Part shown: positions 5,772 to 56,725 of the stretch, one piece after another
How positions within the stretch are numbered: the stretch's first letter is position 1
Layout: every line of letters begins with the position of its first letter
Assembly: GCA_018609195.1 (NCBI GenBank)
Contig: JAHCSE010000018.1
Span: 4,750-68,749, forward strand
Direction: 5' to 3'
Length of the DNA stretch: 64,000 nucleotides
From: Patescibacteria group bacterium
Lineage (GTDB): Bacteria; Patescibacteriota; Minisyncoccia; Minisyncoccales; RBG-13-36-15
Position numbers and translations under genes: made by a program
The notes under the pieces: model-generated
The model's input: the letters and a program-made list of their open reading frames with translations, nothing else
The model's database searches: none
What the model was told of the DNA's origin: nothing

Positions 5772-5792
5772 ATAAACCAAATCGAAAATCGT

Positions 5793-5935
5793 CTACCCCA
5801 GTACCATTCGGTACGGGGTAGGTATGAACCGGCTGGTTCTGTACCACGACTCCCAGCCACAGCACCATTCGGTGCGTGGCTAGGCACGAACCGTATGGTT
5901 CTGTGCCAGCCCCAGTCACCGAATTAAAACCTTGA
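5793..5935 (+). repeat. about 2.5 tandem copies of a ~56-nt double-hairpin unit (structured RNA candidate)
   Basis: CCCCaGTACCattcGGTACGGGG + GAACCggctGGTTC, then CAGCCACaGCACCattcGGTGCGTGGCT + GCACGAACCgtatGGTTCtGTGC. Stems differ but stay complementary (compensatory changes). Confidence 0.6.
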
Positions 5936-5965
5936 GCGCGGTTCGAGAGACCGAGCAAGTAAAAG

Positions 5966-5995
5966 AATCGCCAAGAAGGCGGTTTTTTGATATGC
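5966..5995 (+). terminator. ATCGCC..GGCGGT hairpin + T-run (member of window-wide hairpin family)
   Basis: aatcgccaagaaggcggttttttgata. Confidence 0.55.
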
Positions 5996-6100: not shown

Positions 6101-6490
6101 ATGAGTGGATACGGATTTGCGGATCGTAGTCAGCCTACTCCTGCACCGCAAGCGCCAAAGATGACTTACAAGCAGATGCTTGAGGTTATCAATTCGGTCA
6201 AGCCTGGTGATAGGCTTCGTATAGTCTTCGCCGATGAGGAGTTCGATGGCGATCTCAAGGGTCGCGTCTATCATATCCTTGCGATGTGTGCCCCGGTCGG
6301 TCGAGCTATAGACATCGGCGAGCTTCCGATGTTCAACCTTCAGGCGGTCGCCGACAGTGGCAGGTGGATAGGATTTCGCACCTACGTCGCCACGATCCTC
6401 GACGGGTTCGATCCCAGACACTTTGTCAGCCGTACAATCGGGCACGACATGCTTGAGAGCATCAACCGAATCGATGGTCCGCTGATCTGA
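6101..6490 (+). CDS. hypothetical protein encoded in GC-rich island (129 aa from MSGYGFADRSQ)
   Basis: ATG 6101 is preceded by GGAGA. Strongly GC-rich compared with flanks. A hairpin + T-run follows (6515-6560). No recognisable domain. Confidence 0.5.
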   Translation: MSGYGFADRSQPTPAPQAPKMTYKQMLEVINSVKPGDRLRIVFADEEFDGDLKGRVYHILAMCAPVGRAIDIGELPMFNLQAVADSGRWIGFRTYVATILDGFDPRHFVSRTIGHDMLESINRIDGPLI

Positions 6491-18453: not shown

Positions 18454-18888
18454 ATGGCAAAATCAAATCACAATGCCAAGGGATGGCCTCGAGATAGCTA
18501 CACCGGCCCCGGCGGCGGACTATATACCGACCCAGGGGGAGGGCTTTATACCGGTCCTGGCGGCGGAGCGTATACTGGACCCGGCGGCGGTCTTTACACA
18601 GGGCCTGGAGGAGGTTTGTACACTGGGCCAGGTGGCGGATTATATACCGGACCGGGTGGTGGCCTCTACACTGGCCCCGGTGGTGGATTATCTACGGGTC
18701 CGGGAGGAAGTCTTTATACAGGCCCAGGTGGAGGGCTGTACACTGGACCCGGTGGGGGTCTTTATACTGGACCATGCGAAGAACCTTACTATAGCAATTG
18801 GCCGCCTAGGGAAGTTTTTCTCAAACACTTAAAGGAGCTTGGTATGGATGATATATACCAGCTTCTCAAAGATAGTTGGGGTTTATAA
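18454..18888 (+). CDS. Gly/Tyr-rich octapeptide-repeat protein with small alpha-helical C-terminal domain
   Basis: 15-aa head, 11.5 x (Y-T-G-P-G-G-G-L), 37-aa tail CEEPYYSNWPPREVFLKHLKELGMDDIYQLLKDSWGL. The repeat peptide is conserved only in this frame. Confidence 0.6.
   Translation: MAKSNHNAKGWPRDSYTGPGGGLYTDPGGGLYTGPGGGAYTGPGGGLYTGPGGGLYTGPGGGLYTGPGGGLYTGPGGGLSTGPGGSLYTGPGGGLYTGPGGGLYTGPCEEPYYSNWPPREVFLKHLKELGMDDIYQLLKDSWGL
18499..18774 (+). repeat. 11.5 tandem 24-nt repeats (coding)
   Basis: Units differ mostly at third codon positions (e.g. ggc/ggt/gga/ggg, ctt/ttg/tta/ctc/ctg). Confidence 0.9.
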
Positions 18889-19251: not shown

Positions 19252-19884
19252 ATGTTAGTTTTTATTGACGAGTCTGGAGATCCAGGATTAAAAATAGAAA
19301 AAGGATCTAGTCGATATTTCACGGTATCGTTGGTTATATTTGAGGAGAGAGATGAGGCCTTGGCTTGCGATCAGAGAATCAATCTTTTGAGAAAAGAATT
19401 AGGCTGGGAGCCAAATAGCGAATTCCATTTTAAAAGAAACTCCGATAAGGTAAGGCGGGCTTTTTTACAGGCGGTGGCTCCATATAATTTTTTCTATTAT
19501 GGAATTGTTATTAATAAAGACCCCAAAAAGCTTTGGGGTGAGGGTTTTAGAGATAAAAAATCTTTTTATAAATATACTTGTGGTTTAGTATTTGAAAATG
19601 CAAAAGAGAAGTTAGAAAGCGCAATCATCATAATTGATAAAAGCGGAAATTTAGATTTTAGAAGACAGTTGGCAAAATATTTACGAAAGAGAATGAATGA
19701 AAGAGATAAGAAATTAATTAGAAAAGTAAAAATGCAACGATCGAGTGGGAATAATTTATTGCAGTTAGCGGATTATGTTGCGGGTGTGATAAATAGATCT
19801 ATCCAAAAAGGGAAGAAATATGCAGAGGAATACAGAAAAATCATAGCGCATAGAGAAATTTATGTTCAAATTTGGCCAAAATAA
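19252..19884 (+). CDS. DUF3800 domain protein
   Basis: MLVFIDESGDPG N-terminus and C-terminal LLQLADYVAG, typical of DUF3800. Confidence 0.8.
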   Translation: MLVFIDESGDPGLKIEKGSSRYFTVSLVIFEERDEALACDQRINLLRKELGWEPNSEFHFKRNSDKVRRAFLQAVAPYNFFYYGIVINKDPKKLWGEGFRDKKSFYKYTCGLVFENAKEKLESAIIIIDKSGNLDFRRQLAKYLRKRMNERDKKLIRKVKMQRSSGNNLLQLADYVAGVINRSIQKGKKYAEEYRKIIAHREIYVQIWPK

Positions 19885-20042
19885 GAACCTTGCCTTCGGC
19901 AGAACCTTGATTCCTTTGGAATTAAGAACCTCACCTTCGATGAGAACCTTGTTTTCTTGTTTCACTCGAAAATAAAACTTCCGAGCCTATCCCTTTCGGG
20001 AACGCGGCGATAAACGCCACAGTTCAGCTCGGAAGCAATTCC
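19885..20042 (-). ncRNA. candidate structured sRNA convergent on DUF3800 (three-way junction + AGGTTCT/hairpin repeats)
   Basis: Minus-strand TTGACA (20078-20073), 18 nt, TAATAT (20054-20049). Then CUUCCGAGC..GCUCGGAAG closes two hairpins (GUGGCG/CGCCGC, UCCC-GAAA-GGGA) followed by UUUUAUUUU. After that come 4 x AGGUUCU separated by small hairpins. Confidence 0.4.
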
Positions 20043-22101: not shown

Positions 22102-22362
22102 ATGAATAAAAAACTTTATATAGGAAGTCTTTCTTTCGATACTACCGAAGATGGTCTTCGCGATCACTTTGCAAAAGCAGGTAAAGTAGAGTCAGCAAGT
22201 ATCATCATAGATAGAACTTCTGGTAGATCAAAAGGATTTGGTTTTGTAGAAATGTCTTCAGAGGACGAAGCGAAAAAGGCAATAGAAATGTTTGATGGAA
22301 AAGAATTAGATGGAAGAACTATTGTAGTAAATGAAGCAAGGCCAATGAAAGAAAGGTTTTAA
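22102..22362 (+). CDS. RRM-type RNA-binding protein
   Basis: LYIGSLSF (RNP-2) and KGFGFVEM (RNP-1). Confidence 0.85.
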   Translation: MNKKLYIGSLSFDTTEDGLRDHFAKAGKVESASIIIDRTSGRSKGFGFVEMSSEDEAKKAIEMFDGKELDGRTIVVNEARPMKERF

Positions 22363-30649: not shown

Positions 30650-31669
30650 ATGCCAAGAATTGCAATAAATGGATTTGGTAGGATTGGGAGACCCACTTTC
30701 AAGAAAATTTTAAAAGACCATTCCGATTTGGAAGTGGTAGCGATTAATGATTTGACAGATACGAAAACCTTGGCTCATCTGTTAAGATATGATTCTGTTT
30801 ATGGAATCTATAATAAACAAGTAAAATCTTCTGAAGATTCCCTTTTAATCGATGGAAAGCGCGATGGAAAAAAAGTTAAGGTTTTAGCTGAGACAGATCC
30901 CGCAAAACTCCCTTGGAAAAATCTGGGAATAGATCTTGTTTTGGAATGCACTGGCAGGTTCACTGAAATTGAGGGAGCAAAAAAGCATTTGGCAGCAGGA
31001 GCTAAAAAAGTGATAATCTCTGCCCCCTGTAAAAGCCCAGGGGTGAAAACTTTTGTTTTGGGAGTAAATGAAGAAATGTATGATCCGAAAGCAGATAATG
31101 TAATTTCAATGGCTTCTTGTACTACCAATTGTTTCGCTAACGTAGTTAAAGTTTTAAATGACAATTTCAAGATAATTCGGGGTTTTATGACCACTGTCCA
31201 TAGTTATACCAATGATCAAAGAGTTCTGGATTTACCCCATAGGGATTTGCGAAGAGCAAGGGCAGCAGCCTTAAATATTATTCCAACTACCACAGGGGCA
31301 GCAAAAGCCATTGGTAGGATTATTCCTGAATTAGAAGGGAAATTAAATGGTATTGCCTTTCGAGTTCCCACTCCCACAGTATCAATTTTAGATTTAATTT
31401 GTGAAGTTGAAAAGAAAACAACTACTGAGGAAGTAAATTATATTTTTAAAAAGGCTTCTGAAAAAAAAGAACTACAGGGAATTTTAGGAATAGAGGACAC
31501 TCCCTTAGTTTCTTCTGATTATATTGGCAATTCTTTCTCTGCAATTGTTGATAGCCCTTTGACTATGGTCAAAGACAATTTGGTCAAAGTTGTCGCCTGG
31601 TACGATAACGAATGGGCATACGCTTGTCGTCTTGCTGAGTTCGCAGAATTTGTTGGAAAGAAACTTTAA
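30650..31669 (+). CDS. gap: type I glyceraldehyde-3-phosphate dehydrogenase
   Basis: INGFGRIGR, SCTTNC and WYDNEW motifs. Confidence 0.9.
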   Translation: MPRIAINGFGRIGRPTFKKILKDHSDLEVVAINDLTDTKTLAHLLRYDSVYGIYNKQVKSSEDSLLIDGKRDGKKVKVLAETDPAKLPWKNLGIDLVLECTGRFTEIEGAKKHLAAGAKKVIISAPCKSPGVKTFVLGVNEEMYDPKADNVISMASCTTNCFANVVKVLNDNFKIIRGFMTTVHSYTNDQRVLDLPHRDLRRARAAALNIIPTTTGAAKAIGRIIPELEGKLNGIAFRVPTPTVSILDLICEVEKKTTTEEVNYIFKKASEKKELQGILGIEDTPLVSSDYIGNSFSAIVDSPLTMVKDNLVKVVAWYDNEWAYACRLAEFAEFVGKKL

Positions 31670-31866
31670 TTTTTGATTAACTAAATAAATAAAGTTAGCG
31701 TATGCCCATTCGCACAGGAGGGGTCGGGAGGATTGGGTATCCTCCCGTGGTGGAAAAATAGGAGGTTGCCGAAGGCAACCGACGTAAGAAACCGAAGGTG
31801 TCTTAGGAGCGGAGCGAAGCGAACCCGAAGGGCGAGCGCCTGAACAAAGTGAAGGAAGAGCGGAGC

Positions 31867-31929
31867 GACGAATGGGCTTACGCCTGCCGTCTAGCTGAAT
31901 TTGCAGAATATGTTGGAAAAAAGCTATAA
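31867..31929 (+). pseudogene. orphan C-terminal fragment of a second gap allele (DEWAYACRLAEFAEYVGKKL*)
   Basis: 20 codons + stop parallel the real C-terminus NEWAYACRLAEFAEFVGKKL* (31607-31669), with mostly synonymous differences. Confidence 0.6.
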
Positions 31930-31953
31930 TCTTGAAAGTTAATGGCGTAATTA

Positions 31954-46725: not shown

Positions 46726-46937
46726 AAGATTGTGAATTTGATTTGTTATGTTAATAACAAAGATTCGACCTTTTTGAACACCTTTCTATAATGGCTAATT
46801 TCGTTATTTGAGGTGCTCCTATTTTATCAATTCTAGCAAAAAACTTCTCCTTTGTCGATTGTTATCTAAAAAAAAGACCCCCAGGCATTGCATTGATGCT
46901 TTGCCTGAGGGCTCAGAAAGGGGGGAAATCGGCTGGG

Positions 46938-47162
46938 TTAGTCGTGGTCTGCGATCCATCTTTGAAGCTGGGCGATCCGTTCTAGGACCTGGACGTGACA
47001 GGTCCCGATTGCCTTGATTTCTCCGAACTCCTGCGGGGACATCCCGAGCCCAAGGGCCTCCTTTTCGAGGAACCAGAGTTCCTCTTCTGGAGTACGCTGC
47101 GTCTCAGCCGGTACCTCCCGAACCGGTGCTTTCCTAACCGGTGCCTCCACAGTCAATACCAT
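46938..47162 (-). CDS. 74-aa protein in GC-rich mini-island
   Basis: AAGGAGGT RBS 7 nt upstream of ATG. Own TTGACA-17-TAGAGT promoter (about 47196-47224). Long terminator hairpin at 46868-46915. Confidence 0.5.
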   Translation of the reverse strand: MVLTVEAPVRKAPVREVPAETQRTPEEELWFLEKEALGLGMSPQEFGEIKAIGTCHVQVLERIAQLQRWIADHD

Positions 47163-48884: not shown

Positions 48885-48920
48885 ATCTTATCAAAAAATC
48901 GCCTTTAAGGCGATTTTTTG
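48885..48920 (-). terminator. hairpin + extended -10 (TGATAAGAT) module
   Basis: Minus strand: aaaaaatcgccttaaaggcgattttttgataagat. Confidence 0.55.
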
Positions 48921-50757: not shown

Positions 50758-50791
50758 ATCCTACCAAAAAATCGCCTTTAAGGCGATTTTT
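50758..50791 (-). terminator. hairpin + extended -10 (TGGTAGGAT) module
   Basis: Minus strand: aaaaatcgccttaaaggcgattttttggtaggat. Confidence 0.55.
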
Positions 50792-52326: not shown

Positions 52327-52605
52327 TTATTTTATTATCTCATCTTCATATTCGGGAAAGTAGTTGCTAATCACCCGGAGATTAAATTCTCTTAAAATAG
52401 ATTCTTTTAGCTCCCTCGCCAATAAAAATTCAAAAGATTTTTCTACCAACTCAGCAGGTGTGTGTTTCCCATCGGTTAGCTTCTGGTAATATTCTTTATC
52501 CAACGTTACTGAATACTCAATTTTATCCTCATTATCACCAACTTCAACCAAAAAATTCCACCCATTTTCAGTCTGTTCCTCTTTTTTAATTTTGATATTC
52601 TTCAT
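52327..52605 (-). CDS. hypothetical protein
   Basis: 92-aa ORF preceded by TGGTAGAAT at 52610-52618. Confidence 0.45.
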   Translation of the reverse strand: MKNIKIKKEEQTENGWNFLVEVGDNEDKIEYSVTLDKEYYQKLTDGKHTPAELVEKSFEFLLARELKESILREFNLRVISNYFPEYEDEIIK

Positions 52606-52732
52606 ATTGCAATTCTACCAAAAAACATACCCCATATAAAGCCCCGAACCAGAAACTTCGTTTCAGTTCGGGACTAGTCCAGCACCGTGCTCTGCTCTGG
52701 TGCTGGGCTTAGTTTTTGTGCGGGGTCGCCAC

Positions 52733-52963
52733 AAAAAAAAGAGCCCCCAAGCATTACATCAATGCTTTGCCTGGGGGCTTGGTGGTGGCCCTGAAGGGGC
52801 CTTGGCAAAAAGGGCTAATGGGGGAGAGGGAAAGCGATCCCGGGGTGAGACACCCCGCCGAGGTCATAAAGGAAGGTTACCGGTTTGGCGCATCGCCATG
52901 GAGCCAACTTCCATCCTTCCCGCTTCGAGACCTCTGGTTGAAGAGAACCACCTTCCCTCTCCC
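52733..52963 (-). ncRNA. GC-rich structured RNA, paralog A (unknown class)
   Basis: TTGACT (52997-52992), 16 nt, TATAAT (52975-52970). Transcript starts GGGAGAGGGAAGG and pairs with UUCCCUCUCCC (52821-52833). There are several internal hairpins. It ends in a 17-bp hairpin + U8 (52733-52780). Confidence 0.5.
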
Positions 52964-53021
52964 AAATTAATTATAATTTTTTCAGAACTTGAGTCAAGAG
53001 GAAGGCTAAATAAAAACTCTC

Positions 53022-53056
53022 ATTCTACCAAAAATCGCCCACAAGGCGATTTTTTG
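53022..53056 (-). terminator. hairpin + extended -10 (TGGTAGAAT) module
   Basis: Minus strand: aaaaaatcgccttgtgggcgatttttggtagaat. Confidence 0.55.
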
Positions 53057-53079
53057 GGTTCTCTTTATTCTTGGTTCAC

Positions 53080-53562
53080 TTAATAAAGTAAAGAAAAAGT
53101 AATTATACCAAAGGCGACTGCTACGTTGAGGGATTCTTTCTTGCCCCTCATTGGAATTTCTAATATTTTATCAGCTCTTTGAAGAATTGATGAGGGTAAA
53201 CCTTTTATTTCGTTACCTACTACCAATGCTGCTCTCTCTAAATTTGATTTTGATAGTTTCACTTTGTAGTAGGGGATTGATTTCTTACTTTGCTCAATGG
53301 CAAAAATTTTATAACCTCTGCCAGCAGGTCCATTTTTGATTTTATCAATAAGGCGGGCAGTAGATTTCACTTTCTCCCACGGAACAGATTTTTCTGCTCC
53401 CAAAGATACTTTTATTAATTGCTGGCGAGGGCGACCGAGTTCATCAAAAGGGGCAGGTGTAATTCCGCAAAGATAGATTTTTTCAACACCGGCAGCATCA
53501 GCTGTTCGAAAAATCGAACCCACATTATGCAAACTCCGAATATTATAAAGCAAAACTATCAT
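53080..53562 (-). CDS. SpoU/TrmH family RNA 2'-O-methyltransferase
   Basis: NVGSIFRTADAAG, and C-terminal IPMRG..ESLNVAVA knot motifs. Confidence 0.8.
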   Translation of the reverse strand: MIVLLYNIRSLHNVGSIFRTADAAGVEKIYLCGITPAPFDELGRPRQQLIKVSLGAEKSVPWEKVKSTARLIDKIKNGPAGRGYKIFAIEQSKKSIPYYKVKLSKSNLERAALVVGNEIKGLPSSILQRADKILEIPMRGKKESLNVAVAFGIITFSLLY

Positions 53563-53572
53563 AGATTTTTAT

Positions 53573-53767
53573 TTATTTTCTTTTTGGCGGCTCTATACCA
53601 AGATCTTGGCAAATTTTCTTTGCTAAAAAATTATCAATTTCTTTGTGGCGAGAAACAGTGGATGTTTTTTTCATTAGGGAATTAAAAAAGACGCTATGTC
53701 TTGCGCCTTCCCTTATACAAATACATCTATTTTTAATAAGGTGCTTAATTAAATCCCTTCACTTCAT
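53573..53767 (-). pseudogene. hicA: HicA-family toxin with in-frame TGA at codon 3
   Basis: ATG AAG TGA AGG.. reads MK*RDLIKHLIKNRCICIREGARHSVFFNSLMKKTSTVSRHKEIDNFLAKKICQDLGIEPPKRK*. The ATG overlaps the hicB stop (ATGA). Confidence 0.6.
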
Positions 53768-53988
53768 TTTAAAGAAATTGAGAGTGGCTCCCGAATAACT
53801 TTCCCTTTGGCAATTTCTTTTTTATTAAGAGTCCGATTAGTCTCCAGAATTAACAAAAGCGCGTCTTTCAGATTCTCTTTTACCTCTTTAAGGGTTTTTC
53901 CCTGGGTATTAACTCCTGGAATTTCTTCTACCCAGCCCAAATACCATTTTCCATGTTTTTTGTAAATTGCGGTAAATTGCCTCATCAT
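53764..53988 (-). CDS. hicB: HicB-family (UPF0150) antitoxin
   Basis: FTAIYKKHGKWYLGWVEEIPGVNTQGKTLKEVKENLKDAL pattern. Confidence 0.7.
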   Translation of the reverse strand: MMRQFTAIYKKHGKWYLGWVEEIPGVNTQGKTLKEVKENLKDALLLILETNRTLNKKEIAKGKVIREPLSISLK

Positions 53989-54043
53989 ATATTTTAATTA
54001 TAGATTCCTCAAAAATTATGTCAAATCCGGCTTTTATTTTCTC

Positions 54044-54078
54044 ATCCTACCAAAAAATCGCCGTTTCGGCGATTTTTA
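54044..54078 (-). terminator. hairpin + extended -10 (TGGTAGGAT) module
   Basis: Minus strand: aaaaatcgccgaaacggcgattttttggtaggat. Confidence 0.55.
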
Positions 54079-54090
54079 GCTTCTCAGGAT

Positions 54091-54936
54091 TCACACAGTC
54101 TTGCATCCTTGGAGCAGTTCATCAATATCGTTTCCCACATTTTTACCGACATACCCTCCCTCCAAAACAAAAAACGTAGGTTTTCTCAATTTTGCAAGCT
54201 CTTCTCCTATTTTCCGATAAGATTTTCCTGTCAACCCCAAAGAAGCCAAATCCCTTTCATGAGCATCAAACCCAGCTGACACAGCGATAATTTCTATCTT
54301 CTTAAAATCTATTTTTCTCAAAGCCTCTTGTAAAGTTTTCAAATAAATTTCCTCACCACAGTCAGCCTCTAATGGGAAATTAAAATAATTCCCTTTTGAT
54401 TCAAAACCAGTTCCTGGATAATAAGGGGATCTGTGAAGAGAGAAATAAATTACCTTGGAATCTTCAAAGAAAATTTCTTCTGTGCCGTTGCCATGATGGC
54501 CATCGATATCTAAAATTAATGCCGGCTTTCCCAAATATTTAACAGCAATAGCGACATTGTTGAAATAACAAAATCCTCTGGTTGGAACGCCGAGAGCAAA
54601 ACCTGCTCTTCCGGCATGATGGCCGGGAGGTCGCATTAAAGAAAAGCCGCTAACTTTAGCAGCTAAAATTGCACCTCCCGCAGAAAGCATTGCATATTCG
54701 TAAATATTTTCATAGGCTGGCGTATCTGTGTCTTCTATCTTTCCTTTTTTGAGTTTTTCAATGTAATCTGTTTCGTGAACTAAAAGAAGATCTTTTTCAG
54801 AAGCTAATTCAGGTTTTAAAAACTCATATCCTTTCTCTTTAAGAATTTTGGCAGCTATTTTGACCCTCTCTGGACTCTCAATATACCCCTTCCCATACTT
54901 CAAACACCTTTCATCAAAAATTATTTTCCTTTTCAC
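54091..54936 (-). CDS. histone deacetylase-family (AcuC/Aph-like) deacetylase
   Basis: RPPGHHA, DIDGHHGNGT and EGGY motifs. Confidence 0.85.
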   Translation of the reverse strand: MKRKIIFDERCLKYGKGYIESPERVKIAAKILKEKGYEFLKPELASEKDLLLVHETDYIEKLKKGKIEDTDTPAYENIYEYAMLSAGGAILAAKVSGFSLMRPPGHHAGRAGFALGVPTRGFCYFNNVAIAVKYLGKPALILDIDGHHGNGTEEIFFEDSKVIYFSLHRSPYYPGTGFESKGNYFNFPLEADCGEEIYLKTLQEALRKIDFKKIEIIAVSAGFDAHERDLASLGLTGKSYRKIGEELAKLRKPTFFVLEGGYVGKNVGNDIDELLQGCKTV

Positions 54937-54942
54937 TGGATT

Positions 54943-54972
54943 ATTCTACCAAAAAATCGCCTTTTTGGCGAT
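54943..54972 (-). terminator. hairpin + extended -10 (TGGTAGAAT) module
   Basis: Minus strand: atcgccaaaaaggcgattttttggtagaat. Confidence 0.55.
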
Positions 54973-54976
54973 TAAA

Positions 54977-55171
54977 CAAAAAAGCCCAGAGGGGGCCTTT
55001 TGGCGAAAAGAGCTGGAAAGAGCTGAAGGGAGAGGGGAGGCGATTCTGTCTGAGGTGAGCCTCCCGTATCTGACCACGATGAGGTAGAGAGGTACCGTTC
55101 TGCATCGCGCCACGTCTGAGTCCCCAAGGAGGGGAACGTTTGAGGGTCCGGAGAACCACCTGCCCTCTCCC
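54977..55171 (-). ncRNA. GC-rich structured RNA, paralog B (unknown class)
   Basis: TTGAAT (55205-55200) + TATAAT promoter, nearly identical to paralog A. The 5' end GGGAGAGGGCAGGUGGUUCUC pairs with CCUCCCCUCUCCC (55028-55040). The interior has diverged but keeps hairpins. Confidence 0.5.
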
Positions 55172-55286
55172 AAGTTAATTATAGTTTTTCCAGAACTTGA
55201 TTCAACCCCCACACCTATTTTTAGGTAGTGGCGGGCTTGCCATTCCATAGCTTTAGCGAAGGATGGGCTAAAAGTTGGCTGACTTT

Positions 55287-55859
55287 TTATTTTAGTTTTT
55301 TTAATTTAATGTCGTATATAATATTTTCTATTTTTCTTAGATTTCTTTCTGTTTCATCATATTTTCGCCTTAATTTTCCCGTAAAACCAATCTTAGTAAG
55401 TTCCTCGCTAATATTTTCAATTACTTTTTTATACGAAAGTAACTGTTCAAGATTCTCTGCGCTTGCTATAGTTATTGCTCTTCTTATAAGCTCACCCGTA
55501 AAATCACAGATTCCAGAAATTATCTCCTCTGGCCCCACTTTAATAAAATCAGGAGTTTCTTTTTCAGGTTTGGTTAGAAAGTTATAAAAGGTTATGGCTT
55601 CAATATATTCTTCGACCGCTTCTCTATAAGAAACTTGATTTACCAAATCTTTATTTTTCTTAATTATTTTGTTAATTAATCTAAAAAGATTTTCTACTTT
55701 TTCAATTATCTTTTCACTTTCTTTTATATTATCTCTGCGCAATAAGGCAATCGCTTTTTTAGATGCAACTCTAATTTCATTAGAAATTTTTTGAATCTCG
55801 TATATTAATTCCTGGGTTTCTTGATGCTCTTTAATCGATTTTTTTAATAAATTATTCAT
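55287..55859 (-). CDS. possible translin-family nucleic-acid-binding protein
   Basis: All-alpha 190 aa. GICDFTGELIRRAI resembles the translin/TRAX G..D..GEL.R motif. Weak call. Confidence 0.4.
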   Translation of the reverse strand: MNNLLKKSIKEHQETQELIYEIQKISNEIRVASKKAIALLRRDNIKESEKIIEKVENLFRLINKIIKKNKDLVNQVSYREAVEEYIEAITFYNFLTKPEKETPDFIKVGPEEIISGICDFTGELIRRAITIASAENLEQLLSYKKVIENISEELTKIGFTGKLRRKYDETERNLRKIENIIYDIKLKKLK

Positions 55860-56638: not shown

Positions 56639-56725
56639 TTTTTATTTCAGCTTCGGCTTTGTCATCCATAGCTTTAGCGAAGGATGGGCTAAATTTTGGT
56701 TTTTTTAGGATTTTTGTAAGGATAA

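What the first reader, a model, noticed from the sequence alone, without database searches (positions are those of the whole stretch)
54977..55205. Second copy (paralog B) 2 kb away: promoter almost identical, RNA interior diverged but ends and stems retained
The promoters align over ~35 nt as ttgactcaagttctgaaaaaattataattaattt versus ttgaatcaagttctggaaaaactataattaactt. The RNA 5' ends are GGGAGAGGG(A/C)AGGTGGTTCTC. A central (A/C)(T/G)GGCG(C)GATGC..AA(C)CGGTA(A)CC block and the 3' (G/A)ATCGC..CCCTCTCCC are shared, while the remaining sequence differs yet still forms local hairpins (UCCCC/GGGGA, GAGG/CCUC). The two copies bracket the trmH-hicAB-deacetylase block. Divergent paralogs that keep their closing helix suggest a functional RNA family. 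Alternatively these are a MITE-like element with GGGAGAGGG/CCCTCTCCC terminal inverted repeats that carries its own promoter.
Basis: seen in the sequence. Interest (0 to 1): 0.6.

Follow-up and report, generated by a model that had tools for sequence, protein, structure and literature searches.

The report
Orphan pair of sibling small-RNA genes
Two look-alike, self-contained small RNA genes sit 2 kb apart in a tiny Patescibacteria genome and share a promoter, a long closing helix and a tail but not their ~100-nt interior; closely related strains lack them at this locus and none of the searches that worked found a relative, so they are probably real but dispensable RNAs of unknown role.

Summary
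On the minus strand, 55205-54978 (copy B) and 52997-52733 (copy A) are each a complete unit. Each has a near-consensus sigma-70 promoter, a +1 G, a 19-20 bp closing helix, a three-way junction, a pyrimidine-rich tail and an intrinsic terminator.

Between the copies the promoter is 30/34 identical, the 5' strand of the helix 19/20, the 3' strand 16/20 and the tail plus terminator 29/45. The ~103-nt interior is no more alike than shuffled sequence. Helix differences are transitions that keep pairing through G-U, which fits an RNA read from the minus strand.

There is no shared ORF and no Rfam match. A covariance model found no third copy in the window. Two exact-pattern scans of 185,579 species genomes found no homologue, and neither did the virus, phage or plasmid searches or two spurious-ORF protein searches.

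Strains with 95-97% identical translin lack the RNAs at this locus, so the flanked block is accessory. No reverse transcriptase, integrase, transposase or Ro60 gene lies in the 64 kb.

Best reading: two sibling, independently transcribed structured small RNAs. The conserved frame would be a shared handle and the interiors copy-specific. The MITE reading is not supported. With two sequences and no expression data, function stays inferred.

The parts
55172..55205 (-). Promoter of RNA B: -35 TTGAAT (55205-55200), 16-nt spacer, -10 TATAAT (55183-55178), 6 nt to the +1 G at 55171.
   Evidence: Promoter scan gives 10/12. It is 30/34 identical to the copy A promoter.
54978..55171 (-). RNA B, predicted transcript of about 194 nt from the +1 G to the end of the terminator U-run.
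   Evidence: Sequence. Full-length fold -74.7 kcal/mol, z -2.4. Covariance model R1 scores 106.3 bits on the minus strand and 30.2 on the plus strand.
55152..55171 (-). B P1, 5' strand: GGGAGAGGGCAGGUGGUUCU.
   Evidence: Pairs with 55028-55047. The helix has 19 pairs plus a C10-C mismatch.
55028..55047 (-). B P1, 3' strand: AGAAUCGCCUCCCCUCUCCC.
55145..55151 (-). B P2, 5' strand: CCGGACC. It follows P1 directly.
   Evidence: Minimum-energy fold. Two pairs are compensatory relative to copy A in the hand alignment.
55064..55075 (-). B P2, 3' strand: GGUC-AGAUA-CGG, with a 5-nt bulge.
55091..55112 (-). B conserved central block UGGCGCGAUGCAGAACGGUACC inside the variable apical domain (55076-55144).
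   Evidence: Shared with copy A at 52875-52898. The rest of the interior is not significantly similar.
55052..55063 (-). B P5 hairpin: GAGG-CUCA-CCUC.
   Evidence: It aligns with the copy A P5 through the shared CUCACC, with one compensatory pair.
54998..55027 (-). B single-stranded pyrimidine-rich tail: UUCAGCUCUUUCCAGCUCUUUUCGCCAAAA.
   Evidence: Mostly unpaired in the fold: a 4-bp AGCU/AGCU hairpin forms inside it, and its last four A's pair with the terminator U-run. AGCYCUUUUYGCC is shared with copy A.
54978..54997 (-). B intrinsic terminator: GGCCCCCUCUGGGCUUUUUU.
   Evidence: The terminator scan calls 55001-54979, 9 pairs followed by a T-run.
54943..54973 (-). Terminator-promoter module AATCGCCAAAAAGGCGATTTTTTGGTAGAAT. 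It separates RNA B from the deacetylase gene, whose GTG start follows the -10 element by 6 nt.
   Evidence: The same module occurs five times between 48.9 and 55 kb.
52964..52997 (-). Promoter of RNA A: TTGACT-16-TATAAT.
   Evidence: Promoter scan gives 11/12.
52733..52963 (-). RNA A (the paralogue), predicted transcript of about 231 nt. Parts: P1 52945-52963 with 52822-52840; P2 52929-52937 with 52858-52865; central block 52875-52898; P5 52841-52857; tail 52802-52821; first terminator hairpin 52787-52801; second terminator 52733-52778.
   Evidence: Full-length fold -111.1 kcal/mol, z -5.2. Model R1 scores 123.6 bits on the minus strand and 21.6 on the plus strand.
52998..54977 (-). The block flanked by the two RNA genes: deacetylase, hicB, hicA pseudogene and SpoU/TrmH methylase. 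Together with the RNAs it varies between strains.
   Evidence: Pfam. In L169 the whole block and both RNAs are missing between translin and the 92-aa gene. In L170 RNA B and the deacetylase are missing.

Best explanation
RNA B (55171 to 54978) and RNA A (52963 to 52733) are two sibling small-RNA genes, each transcribed on its own, in a Patescibacteria chromosome.

Shown by the sequence:
- Each is a self-contained cassette with a near-consensus sigma-70 promoter.
- The transcript starts with a G, and its first 19-20 nt pair with nt ~125-144 to form a long closing helix (P1).
- P1 opens into a three-way junction. One arm is P2, which carries a ~65-nt apical domain. The other is a short P5 hairpin with a CUCA(CC) loop.
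- A 20-30 nt pyrimidine-rich tail that is largely unpaired (AGCYCUUUUYGCC) and an intrinsic terminator follow.

Inferred:
- The conserved frame (promoter, P1, tail, terminator) gives both RNAs the same expression, protection of the 5' end, and a common handle for a protein or a pairing partner.
- The unrelated interiors give each copy its own specificity. This is the logic of sibling sRNAs and of Y-RNA paralogues.
- The RNAs act in trans. Each is closed off from the next gene by its own terminator plus a separate terminator-promoter module.
- They are accessory, because the locus is a cassette hot spot that differs between near-identical strains.
For: - Promoters are 11/12 and 10/12 matches to consensus. 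A terminator is called for B, and a hairpin plus U8 is visible for A.
- Similarity starts exactly at the -35 element and ends at the terminator. By segment: promoter 30/34, P1 5' strand 19/20, P1 3' strand 16/20, tail plus terminator 29/45 with z 5.2.
- In P1 all three one-sided differences keep pairing (G-C/G-U, U-A/U-G). Overall 98.7% of cells pair, against 47-61% when the partners are slid. P2 and P5 hold 3 compensatory double changes.
- Strand asymmetry: the core of A folds at -74.3 kcal/mol (z -4.95) against -62.3 on the plus strand. The core of B folds at -60.5 (z -2.32) against -58.8 (z -1.12). Model R1 scores 124 and 106 bits on the minus strand and 22 and 30 on the plus strand.
- No ORF is shared: GUG at +13 gives 27 aa in A and 72 aa in B, the latter reading through the terminator.
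- The arrangement is identical in independent assemblies from JGI, Logan and ENA/NCBI, so it is not an assembly artefact.
- The locus is accessory.
Against: - There is no expression data.
- There are only two sequences. The P2/P5 alignment was fitted by hand to the structure, so the compensatory counts lean towards it; 56 of 500 shuffles reach the observed covariation.
- B has a C-C mismatch in the middle of P1.
- The interiors are not detectably homologous, and the conserved central block sits in different predicted pairings in A and B.
- No homologue was found anywhere. Conservation across species, the usual test of a functional RNA, is therefore missing.
- The exact-pattern scans would miss diverged relatives, and the metagenome scan failed.
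- Strains with 95-97% identical translin lack the RNAs at this locus.
- The genome is full of GC-rich hairpin repeats.
Confidence: 0.55

Rival explanations
1. Selfish GC-rich repeat, MITE-like or REP-like. The GGGAGAGGG...CCCTCTCCC inverted repeat would be the end of a small non-autonomous mobile element, or a hairpin into whose loop other GC-rich hairpins have nested. The promoter would be carried along or be fortuitous.
For: - The RNAs are 60-62% GC in a 37% GC genome.
- The genome and its relatives carry many repeated GC-rich intergenic hairpins. One 29-nt hairpin is repeated exactly at 55244-55272 and 56665-56693.
- One case of GC-rich hairpins nested in the loop of another hairpin can be seen by comparing window 52630-52725 with L169 1867-1895.
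- The locus is strain-variable.
- The interiors of A and B are unrelated.
Against: - Only two copies exist in 64 kb, even by covariance model with filters off.
- None was found in relatives' loci, 185,579 species genomes, IMG/VR, phages or plasmids.
- Similarity runs 34 nt upstream and about 45 nt downstream of the inverted repeat, so the repeat is not the element's end.
- Neither the repeat nor the whole unit has a target-site duplication.
- The arms pair through G-U, which would be C-A mismatches on the other strand.
- No transposase or RAYT gene lies in the window.
Confidence: 0.15
2. 6S-like RNA. The long closing helix plus an internal open region would mimic an open promoter and sequester RNA polymerase holoenzyme. 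The two paralogues would parallel Bacillus 6S-1 and 6S-2.
For: - Core size is 142-144 nt, transcript size about 194-231 nt, and there is a strong promoter.
- The 5' and 3' ends pair in a long stem.
- In A, 7 unpaired nt lie 5' of the junction (6 in the hand alignment), opposite a hairpin on the 3' side. Many 6S RNAs show this layout (own knowledge).
Against: - The Rfam 6S models give nothing even at E <= 10 on the isolated RNAs.
- B has no unpaired 5' bubble strand, because P1 runs straight into P2.
- The fold is a three-way junction, not a rod.
- The RNAs are missing from the locus in strains with 95-97% identical translin and no homologue was found in other genomes. This does not fit a housekeeping RNA.
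Confidence: 0.06
3. Boundary repeats of a genomic island. The two copies would be attL/attR-like direct repeats left by integration of the deacetylase-hicAB-trmH block into a pre-existing RNA gene, or would serve as recombination substrates for cassette exchange. The RNA fold would be secondary.
For: - The copies are direct repeats that flank a block absent from a near-identical strain (L169).
- A part of the block is absent from another strain (L170).
Against: - Both copies are complete genes and not a gene plus a fragment.
- The longest identical run is 11 nt, so there is no att-like identical core.
- No integrase or recombinase lies in the 64 kb.
- L169 has neither copy, so there is no resident target gene.
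- Cassette borders coincide with the AATCGCC...GGCGATTTTTTGGTAGAAT modules rather than with the RNAs.
Confidence: 0.08

Closest known systems
Sibling sRNA pairs such as OmrA/OmrB of enterobacteria (own knowledge, not tested here)
   Same: Two adjacent paralogous sRNA genes point the same way, each with its own similar promoter and terminator. The 5' and 3' ends are nearly identical and the middle is divergent.
   Different: In OmrA/B the conserved 5' end is a single-stranded seed. Here the conserved 5' end is locked in a 19-20 bp helix with the conserved 3' segment. The RNAs are 2-3 times longer, GC-rich and 2 kb apart, with four genes between them. No targets or chaperone are known.
Y RNAs (Ro60-associated; Rfam RF00019 and bacterial YrlA)
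   Same: The 5' and 3' ends form a conserved terminal stem. Paralogues differ in the internal domain and cluster in the genome. This is the same 'shared handle plus variable module' logic.
   Different: There is no Rfam hit. No TROVE/Ro60 gene lies in the 64 kb. The bulged Ro-binding helix and the tRNA-like module were not seen.
6S RNA (Rfam RF00013)
   Same: Similar size, strong promoter, long closing stem, and paralogue pairs in some bacteria.
   Different: There is no model hit. The fold is a three-way junction and not a rod with a central bubble. Copy B lacks the 5' bubble strand. The RNAs are not conserved among close relatives.
MITEs with promoters, such as Neisseria Correia elements (own knowledge)
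   Same: About 150 nt bounded by an inverted repeat, able to fold as a hairpin in RNA, and associated with a promoter.
   Different: There are only two copies and the interiors are unrelated. Homology extends beyond the inverted repeat. There is no target-site duplication, and G-U pairing favours one strand.

Membership tests
Independent bacterial sRNA gene (generic) | Own sigma-70-type promoter | tested here: met
   TTGAAT-16-TATAAT (10/12) and TTGACT-16-TATAAT (11/12), two of the three best sites in 3.6 kb and 30/34 identical between copies.
Independent bacterial sRNA gene (generic) | Intrinsic terminator at the 3' end | tested here: met
   B has 55001-54979, 9 pairs plus a T-run. A has GGCCCCUUCAGGGCC followed by a 12-pair hairpin and U8 at 52733-52778.
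Independent bacterial sRNA gene (generic) | No conserved reading frame | tested here: met
   All three frames were compared. Only MVL is shared at the +13 GUG, and stops fall at different places.
Independent bacterial sRNA gene (generic) | Detected transcript with defined ends | not testable with these tools
Independent bacterial sRNA gene (generic) | Structure conserved with covariation across species | tested here: inconclusive
   Only two paralogues exist. There are 40 pairs with 98.7% of cells paired, 3 double and 3 one-sided changes and 1 mismatch. The alignment was fitted by hand, and 56 of 500 shuffles reach the covariation score. No orthologues were found.
MITE | Terminal inverted repeats mark the ends of the repeated unit | tested here: not met
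   Similarity continues 34 nt upstream (promoter) and about 45 nt downstream (tail and terminator) of the inverted repeat.
MITE | Target-site duplication | tested here: not met
   Flanks of the repeat are TAATTT|...|CCATTA in A and TAACTT|...|TTCAGC in B. The flanks of the whole units are also unrelated.
MITE | Many near-identical copies | tested here: not met
   Two copies in 64 kb by pattern and by covariance model with filters off. The interiors are not significantly similar. None was found in other collections. Copy number in the rest of the 750-kb genome was not seen.
6S RNA | Match to the Rfam 6S covariance models | tested here: not met
   No 6S hit at the gathering score or at E <= 10 on the isolated RNAs.
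6S RNA | Closing stem, large two-sided central bubble, terminal stem | tested here: not met
   The fold is a three-way junction. Copy B has no unpaired 5' strand between P1 and P2.
6S RNA | Binds RNA polymerase holoenzyme and templates product RNA | not testable with these tools
   This needs biochemistry.
Y RNA | Ro60 (TROVE) gene nearby and a Ro-binding bulged stem | tested here: not met
   No TROVE domain was found among the ORFs scanned across the 64 kb. There is no Rfam Y_RNA hit. The rest of the genome was not seen.
Retron msr-msd | Reverse transcriptase gene next to the ncRNA | tested here: not met
   No RVT domain was found in the window.
Integron attC site | IntI integrase nearby and R''/R' core sites (RYYYAAC / GTTRRRY) at the ends | tested here: not met
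   No integrase was found in the window (same calls). The ends read GGGAGAGGG/CCCTCTCCC, which are not core sites.

The most novel reading that the evidence does not exclude
The conserved promoter, closing helix and tail may form a natural RNA 'frame' into which unrelated ~100-nt GC-rich modules are placed. That would make this a modular, cassette-borne RNA system. The frame would recruit a common partner, for example the genome's RRM protein or a dsRNA-binding factor, and the swappable interior would set specificity. Such a system could be an accessory RNA-based function (defence, toxin-antitoxin control or cassette mobility) peculiar to Patescibacteria. My data do not exclude this: the frame is under much stronger constraint than the interior, the locus exchanges cassettes between near-identical strains, and nothing similar is in Rfam.
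Probability: 0.1. Interest if true: 0.7.

Novelty: new member of a known kind. Interest (0 to 1): 0.33.

Why it matters
Very few non-coding RNAs beyond the universal ones are described for Patescibacteria (CPR). Their reduced genomes leave little room for non-essential DNA. A pair of strongly promoted, structured, strain-variable RNAs would be a concrete handle on RNA-based accessory functions in this group. The same locus also shows how genes are exchanged as single promoter-to-terminator cassettes. With only two sequences and no expression data, this is a lead and not a result.

Tried and rejected
1. Rfam. I scanned the whole window at gathering score, the 3.1-kb region at E <= 10, and each RNA alone at E <= 10. 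Nothing relevant matched.

2. Synteny through translin, the gene upstream of B. Ninety-three homologues were found. Loci L003-L016 from relatives with 55-77% identical translin have different neighbours and no RNA, by blastn and by covariance model.

3. Synteny through the deacetylase downstream of B. The closest homologue (79%, L179) sits in a tight operon with no RNA upstream.

4. Spurious-ORF trick. The 127-aa ORF that annotators called across RNA A (P0094) finds only itself in 5.8 billion proteins and in 1.84 billion representatives.

5. Exact-pattern scans. The genome-contig scan with the 20-mer 5' end found 0 hits. The second scan used GGAGAGGG-N105-135-CCCTCTCCC-N5-8-ATTNTA, validated on the window. 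It gave 4 unrelated hits from Simkaniaceae, Okeania and Nodosilinea, none with an Rfam match.

6. The metagenome scan with GGGAGAGGGNAGGYGGTYC was a mistake. Even the source contig was not reached, so this scan says nothing.

7. Four viral scans gave only chance hits, two of them the 3' end of a phage tRNA.

8. blastn against phages and plasmids gave nothing.

9. Coding potential was rejected.

10. PADLOC on the neighbouring proteins gave only generic RecD/PIF1 helicase and Cas4-like nuclease hits, plus a marginal Cas12f hit (E 0.006) for the 92-aa protein, which I discount.

11. Ideas considered and dropped. Resemblance of the P1 3' strand to the 16S anti-Shine-Dalgarno tail is just pyrimidine tract against pyrimidine tract and is not significant. 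A tRNA-like or T-arm reading fails because the loop does not fit and ARAGORN finds nothing. A phi29 pRNA-like ring RNA, hammerhead or other ribozymes, a bridge or omega RNA, and TIGR arrays were dropped because no partner gene is present and no Rfam model matches.

12. A possible 4-5 bp pseudoknot between the central UGGCG and the tail YGCCA fits both copies (C-G in B, U-G in A). It is too short to test with two sequences.

Full report
**What is there**

The window is 37% GC. Its genes are ordinary chromosomal ones: glycolysis, FtsZ, a release factor, ribosomal protein L25 and restriction-modification genes. A homologue of its translin gene is named 'Patescibacteria group bacterium' by NCBI.

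The finding lies on the minus strand. Copy B has a promoter at 55205-55172 (TTGAAT-16-TATAAT, 10/12 to consensus). A G follows 6 nt after the -10 element, at 55171. The GC-rich transcript runs to the terminator GGCCCCCUCUGGGCUUUUUU at 54997-54978.

Copy A lies 2.2 kb downstream in the same orientation. Its promoter is at 52997-52964 (TTGACT-16-TATAAT, 11/12). The RNA starts at 52963. It has a first terminator-like hairpin at 52801-52787 and a second hairpin with U8 at 52778-52733.

They are far beyond chance: degenerate patterns for the promoter and for the 5' end each find exactly these two sites and none in shuffles.

**Anatomy**

Both RNAs fold with their first 19-20 nt paired to nt ~125-144. 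This helix, P1, is GGGAGAGGGnAGGUGGUUC(U) paired with (A)GrAUCGCyUyCCCUCUCCC.

P1 opens into a three-way junction. P2 is CC-GAGGUC/GACCUC-GG in A and CCG-GACC/GGUC-CGG in B. It carries a 63-69 nt apical domain. P5 is a short hairpin that abuts P2 and holds the shared CUCACC.

After P1 comes a 20-30 nt pyrimidine-rich tail, largely unpaired in the fold, with the shared motif AGCYCUUUUYGCC. The terminator follows.

I forced a hand-made structural alignment through MAFFT, using N as filler. On it, 40 pairs are 98.7% paired, against 47-61% when the 3' partners are slid by 1-3 columns. Three pairs change on one side only and keep pairing through G-U. Three pairs change on both sides and stay paired: two in P2 and one in P5. 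One pair is lost, the C10-C mismatch in B. The alignment was fitted to the structure and there are only two sequences, so these numbers are supportive but not decisive. Fifty-six of 500 shuffles reach the observed covariation score.

**Which strand, and RNA or DNA**

P1 holds four G-U pairs in A and two in B. On the other strand these would be C-A mismatches.

- The core of A folds at -74.3 kcal/mol (z -4.95) on the minus strand and -62.3 on the plus strand.
- The core of B folds at -60.5 (z -2.32) on the minus strand and -58.8 (z -1.12) on the plus strand.
- A covariance model built from the two cores scores 123.6 and 106.3 bits on the minus strand, against 21.6 and 30.2 on the plus strand.

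This agrees with the direction of the promoters and terminators. It argues for selection on an RNA and against selection on a DNA inverted repeat.

**Pattern of conservation**

| Segment | Identity between A and B |
|---|---|
| Promoter | 30/34 |
| P1, 5' strand | 19/20 |
| P1, 3' strand | 16/20 |
| Tail plus first terminator | 29/45 (z 5.2) |
| Interior (103-104 nt) | not above shuffles (z 1.45; 39 of 500) |

The one recognisable interior element is a 22-24 nt block, UGGCG..AUGC..CGGUA.CC.

Similarity begins exactly at the -35 element and ends at the terminator. The duplicated unit is therefore a gene: a conserved frame around an interior that has either diverged to saturation or been replaced.

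No reading frame is shared. GUG at +13 gives 27 aa in A and 72 aa in B, and the B frame reads through the terminator.

**Is it a known RNA?**

No Rfam family matches at gathering score or at E <= 10, even when each RNA is searched alone. The only Rfam hit in the window is a DUF3800-IX RNA at 19973-20036, next to a DUF3800 gene.

ARAGORN finds no tRNA or tmRNA. No reverse transcriptase, integrase, transposase, TROVE/Ro60 or Cas protein is encoded among the ORFs I scanned across the 64 kb.

**Distribution**

A covariance-model search of the whole window with filters off finds only A and B. The next best score is 13.5 bits.

No homologue was found in any of the following:

- loci from relatives fetched through translin or the deacetylase;
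- 185,579 species-representative genomes, by two exact-pattern scans, the second validated on the window;
- IMG/VR;
- GenBank phages or PLSDB plasmids;
- two protein searches with the spurious ORF that annotators called over RNA A.

My metagenome scan was wasted on a pattern that was too degenerate, and it says nothing. Exact patterns miss diverged relatives. The fair statement is that no close relative exists in the representative genomes. It does not follow that the family is unique.

Independent assemblies of the same strain from JGI, Logan and ENA/NCBI are 99.8-99.98% identical and show the same arrangement. The structure is therefore not an assembly artefact.

Two slightly different strains are informative.

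- In L169 (translin 95% identical), translin is followed by a promoter and a 31-aa hydrophobic peptide gene, and then directly by the homologue of the 92-aa gene that lies downstream of RNA A in the window. RNA B, the deacetylase, hicBA, trmH and RNA A are all absent.
- In L170 (translin 97%), translin is followed by a terminator-promoter module and then hicB and an intact hicA. RNA B and the deacetylase are absent.

The stretch between translin and the 92-aa gene is thus a cassette hot spot, and the RNAs are accessory. Cassette borders coincide with a repeated module, AATCGCC-loop-GGCGATTTTTTGGTAGAAT. It occurs five times between 48.9 and 55 kb. The module combines a two-way terminator with an extended -10 promoter placed 6-8 nt before the start codon.

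**Interpretation**

The best-supported reading is that these are two sibling small-RNA genes, each transcribed on its own.

Shown: the gene-like unit, the strand, the closing helix, the absence of a shared ORF, the accessory status, and the absence of partner genes typical of retrons, integrons, mobile elements or Ro60.

Inferred: the conserved frame gives common expression, protection of the 5' end inside P1, and a common binding handle (the P1 duplex and the single-stranded tail). The interiors would give each copy its own specificity. The RNAs would act in trans, because each is walled off from the next gene by its own terminator and a separate terminator-promoter module.

This is how sibling sRNAs such as OmrA/OmrB, or Y-RNA paralogues, are organised. 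Membership of those families is either untestable here or not met.

**Rivals**

- The MITE reading fails on ends, target-site duplication and copy number.
- A 6S-like role fails on the Rfam model, on the shape (copy B has no 5' bubble strand) and on dispensability.
- An attL/attR reading fails because both copies are whole genes, the longest identical run is 11 nt, there is no integrase, and L169 has no resident copy.
- A selfish GC-rich hairpin element remains the most serious rival. This lineage is full of repeated GC-rich intergenic hairpins, and one hairpin near RNA A has visibly acquired nested GC-rich hairpins when compared with L169.

**Verdict**

It most likely marks an unclassified, species-restricted pair of small structured RNA genes in an accessory cassette locus of a Patescibacteria genome. 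Function is unknown, and the mechanism proposed here is inference. Interest is moderate to low until expression data or homologues are available.

Noticed in passing
window 48895-48917, 50768-50790, 53031-53053, 54054-54076, 54953-54973 (minus-strand genes); also L170 1188-1216: A repeated punctuation module, AAAAATCGCC-loop-GGCGATTTTTTGGTAGAAT. It is a palindromic, probably two-way terminator fused to an extended -10 promoter. The next gene's start codon lies 6-8 nt after the -10 element, which suggests leaderless mRNAs. Cassette borders between strains fall at these modules.
   Followed up: partly
window 52600-55290 compared with L169 1573-1986 and L170 1158-1571: The stretch between translin and the 92-aa gene is a cassette hot spot. 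Three strains with 95-100% identical translin carry three different gene sets here. L169 has a promoter plus a 31-aa hydrophobic peptide ORF (MPPFILGLIVGLLLYPVIAIAVIFYKDVLRG) in place of the whole block.
   Followed up: yes
window 53565-53767 (-): hicA is a pseudogene in the window. Codon 3 is TGA where L170 has CGA and an intact N-terminus (MKRKDLIKHL...). Annotators call only a 33-aa C-terminal remnant.
   Followed up: partly
window 31698-31883 (+), flanks 31620-31670 and 31884-31935: A 186-nt GC-rich element with a ~15-bp closing helix (GCGUAUGCCCAUUCG / CGAAUGGGCUUACGC) sits just after the GAPDH stop codon. A diverged second copy of the last ~50 nt of the GAPDH gene follows it. This looks like an insertion that brought or duplicated the gene's 3' end. 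No Rfam hit.
   Followed up: partly
window 52679-52707 (-) and L012 5717-5746: A hairpin with a conserved 18-nt loop, ACCAGAGCARAGCACGGU, and a covarying stem (CCAGC/GCUGG against CCCCG/ACGGGG). In the window it and a second GC-rich hairpin (52642-52672) lie inside the loop of a larger hairpin (52715-52725 with 52630-52640). In L169 (1867-1895) that larger hairpin has a plain 7-nt loop.
   Followed up: partly
window 55244-55272 and 56665-56693 (-); similar in L013 2560-2640, 3240-3300, 700-790: The motif TTTAGCCCATCCTTCGCTAAAGCTATGGA is repeated exactly, downstream of translin and upstream of the PD-(D/E)XK nuclease gene. It belongs to a lineage-wide set of GC-rich hairpins of the form CCUCCUUCG...CGGAAGGRCAAG that sit just before start codons.
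   Followed up: partly
window 46941-47162 (-) with terminator 46868-46911; window 6101-6490 (+): Two small GC-rich ORFs (GC-rich islands peaking above 0.6 in 80-nt windows) with their own promoters and no Pfam match, in a 37% GC genome. The 46.9-kb ORF is preceded by a clear Shine-Dalgarno sequence (AAAGGAGG). Its terminator is 87% identical to the second terminator of RNA A (52733-52778).
   Followed up: partly
window 5781-5983 (+): Two tandem ~60-nt GC-rich structured units (ACCCCAGUACCAUUCGGUACGGGGUAGG...GAACCGnnUGGUUCUGURCC) lie between a TauE-like gene and the GC-rich ORF at 6101.
   Followed up: no
window 19973-20036 (-) and 19252-19884 (+): A DUF3800-IX RNA (Rfam RF02968, 58.3 bits) lies next to a DUF3800 protein gene. 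This is the expected association and the only Rfam hit in the window.
   Followed up: yes
window 54091-54936 (-): Many of the deacetylase's closest homologues, at about 70% identity, are annotated as Bathyarchaeia archaeon MAGs. This suggests gene transfer between archaea and Patescibacteria.
   Followed up: no
window 55287-55859 (-): A translin-family protein, which is rare in bacteria, has 93 homologues that all look like this lineage. Its neighbours differ in every relative examined.
   Followed up: partly
L175 6403-6556 (Simkaniaceae MAG JAGOSM010000030.1), opposite strand: A chance pattern hit landed on an unannotated ~150-nt element with a TAGAAT -10 box and a long closing helix (GGGGGAGAGGGGGGUGG...CCACCCCCUCUCCC). 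It has no Rfam match. It may be an undescribed RNA of chlamydiae and is unrelated to the finding.
   Followed up: partly
window 18454-18888 (+) and 22102-22362 (+): An ORF made of GPGGGLYT-like glycine-rich repeats, and an 86-aa single-RRM RNA-binding protein. The RRM protein is a candidate generic partner for small RNAs in this genome.
   Followed up: no
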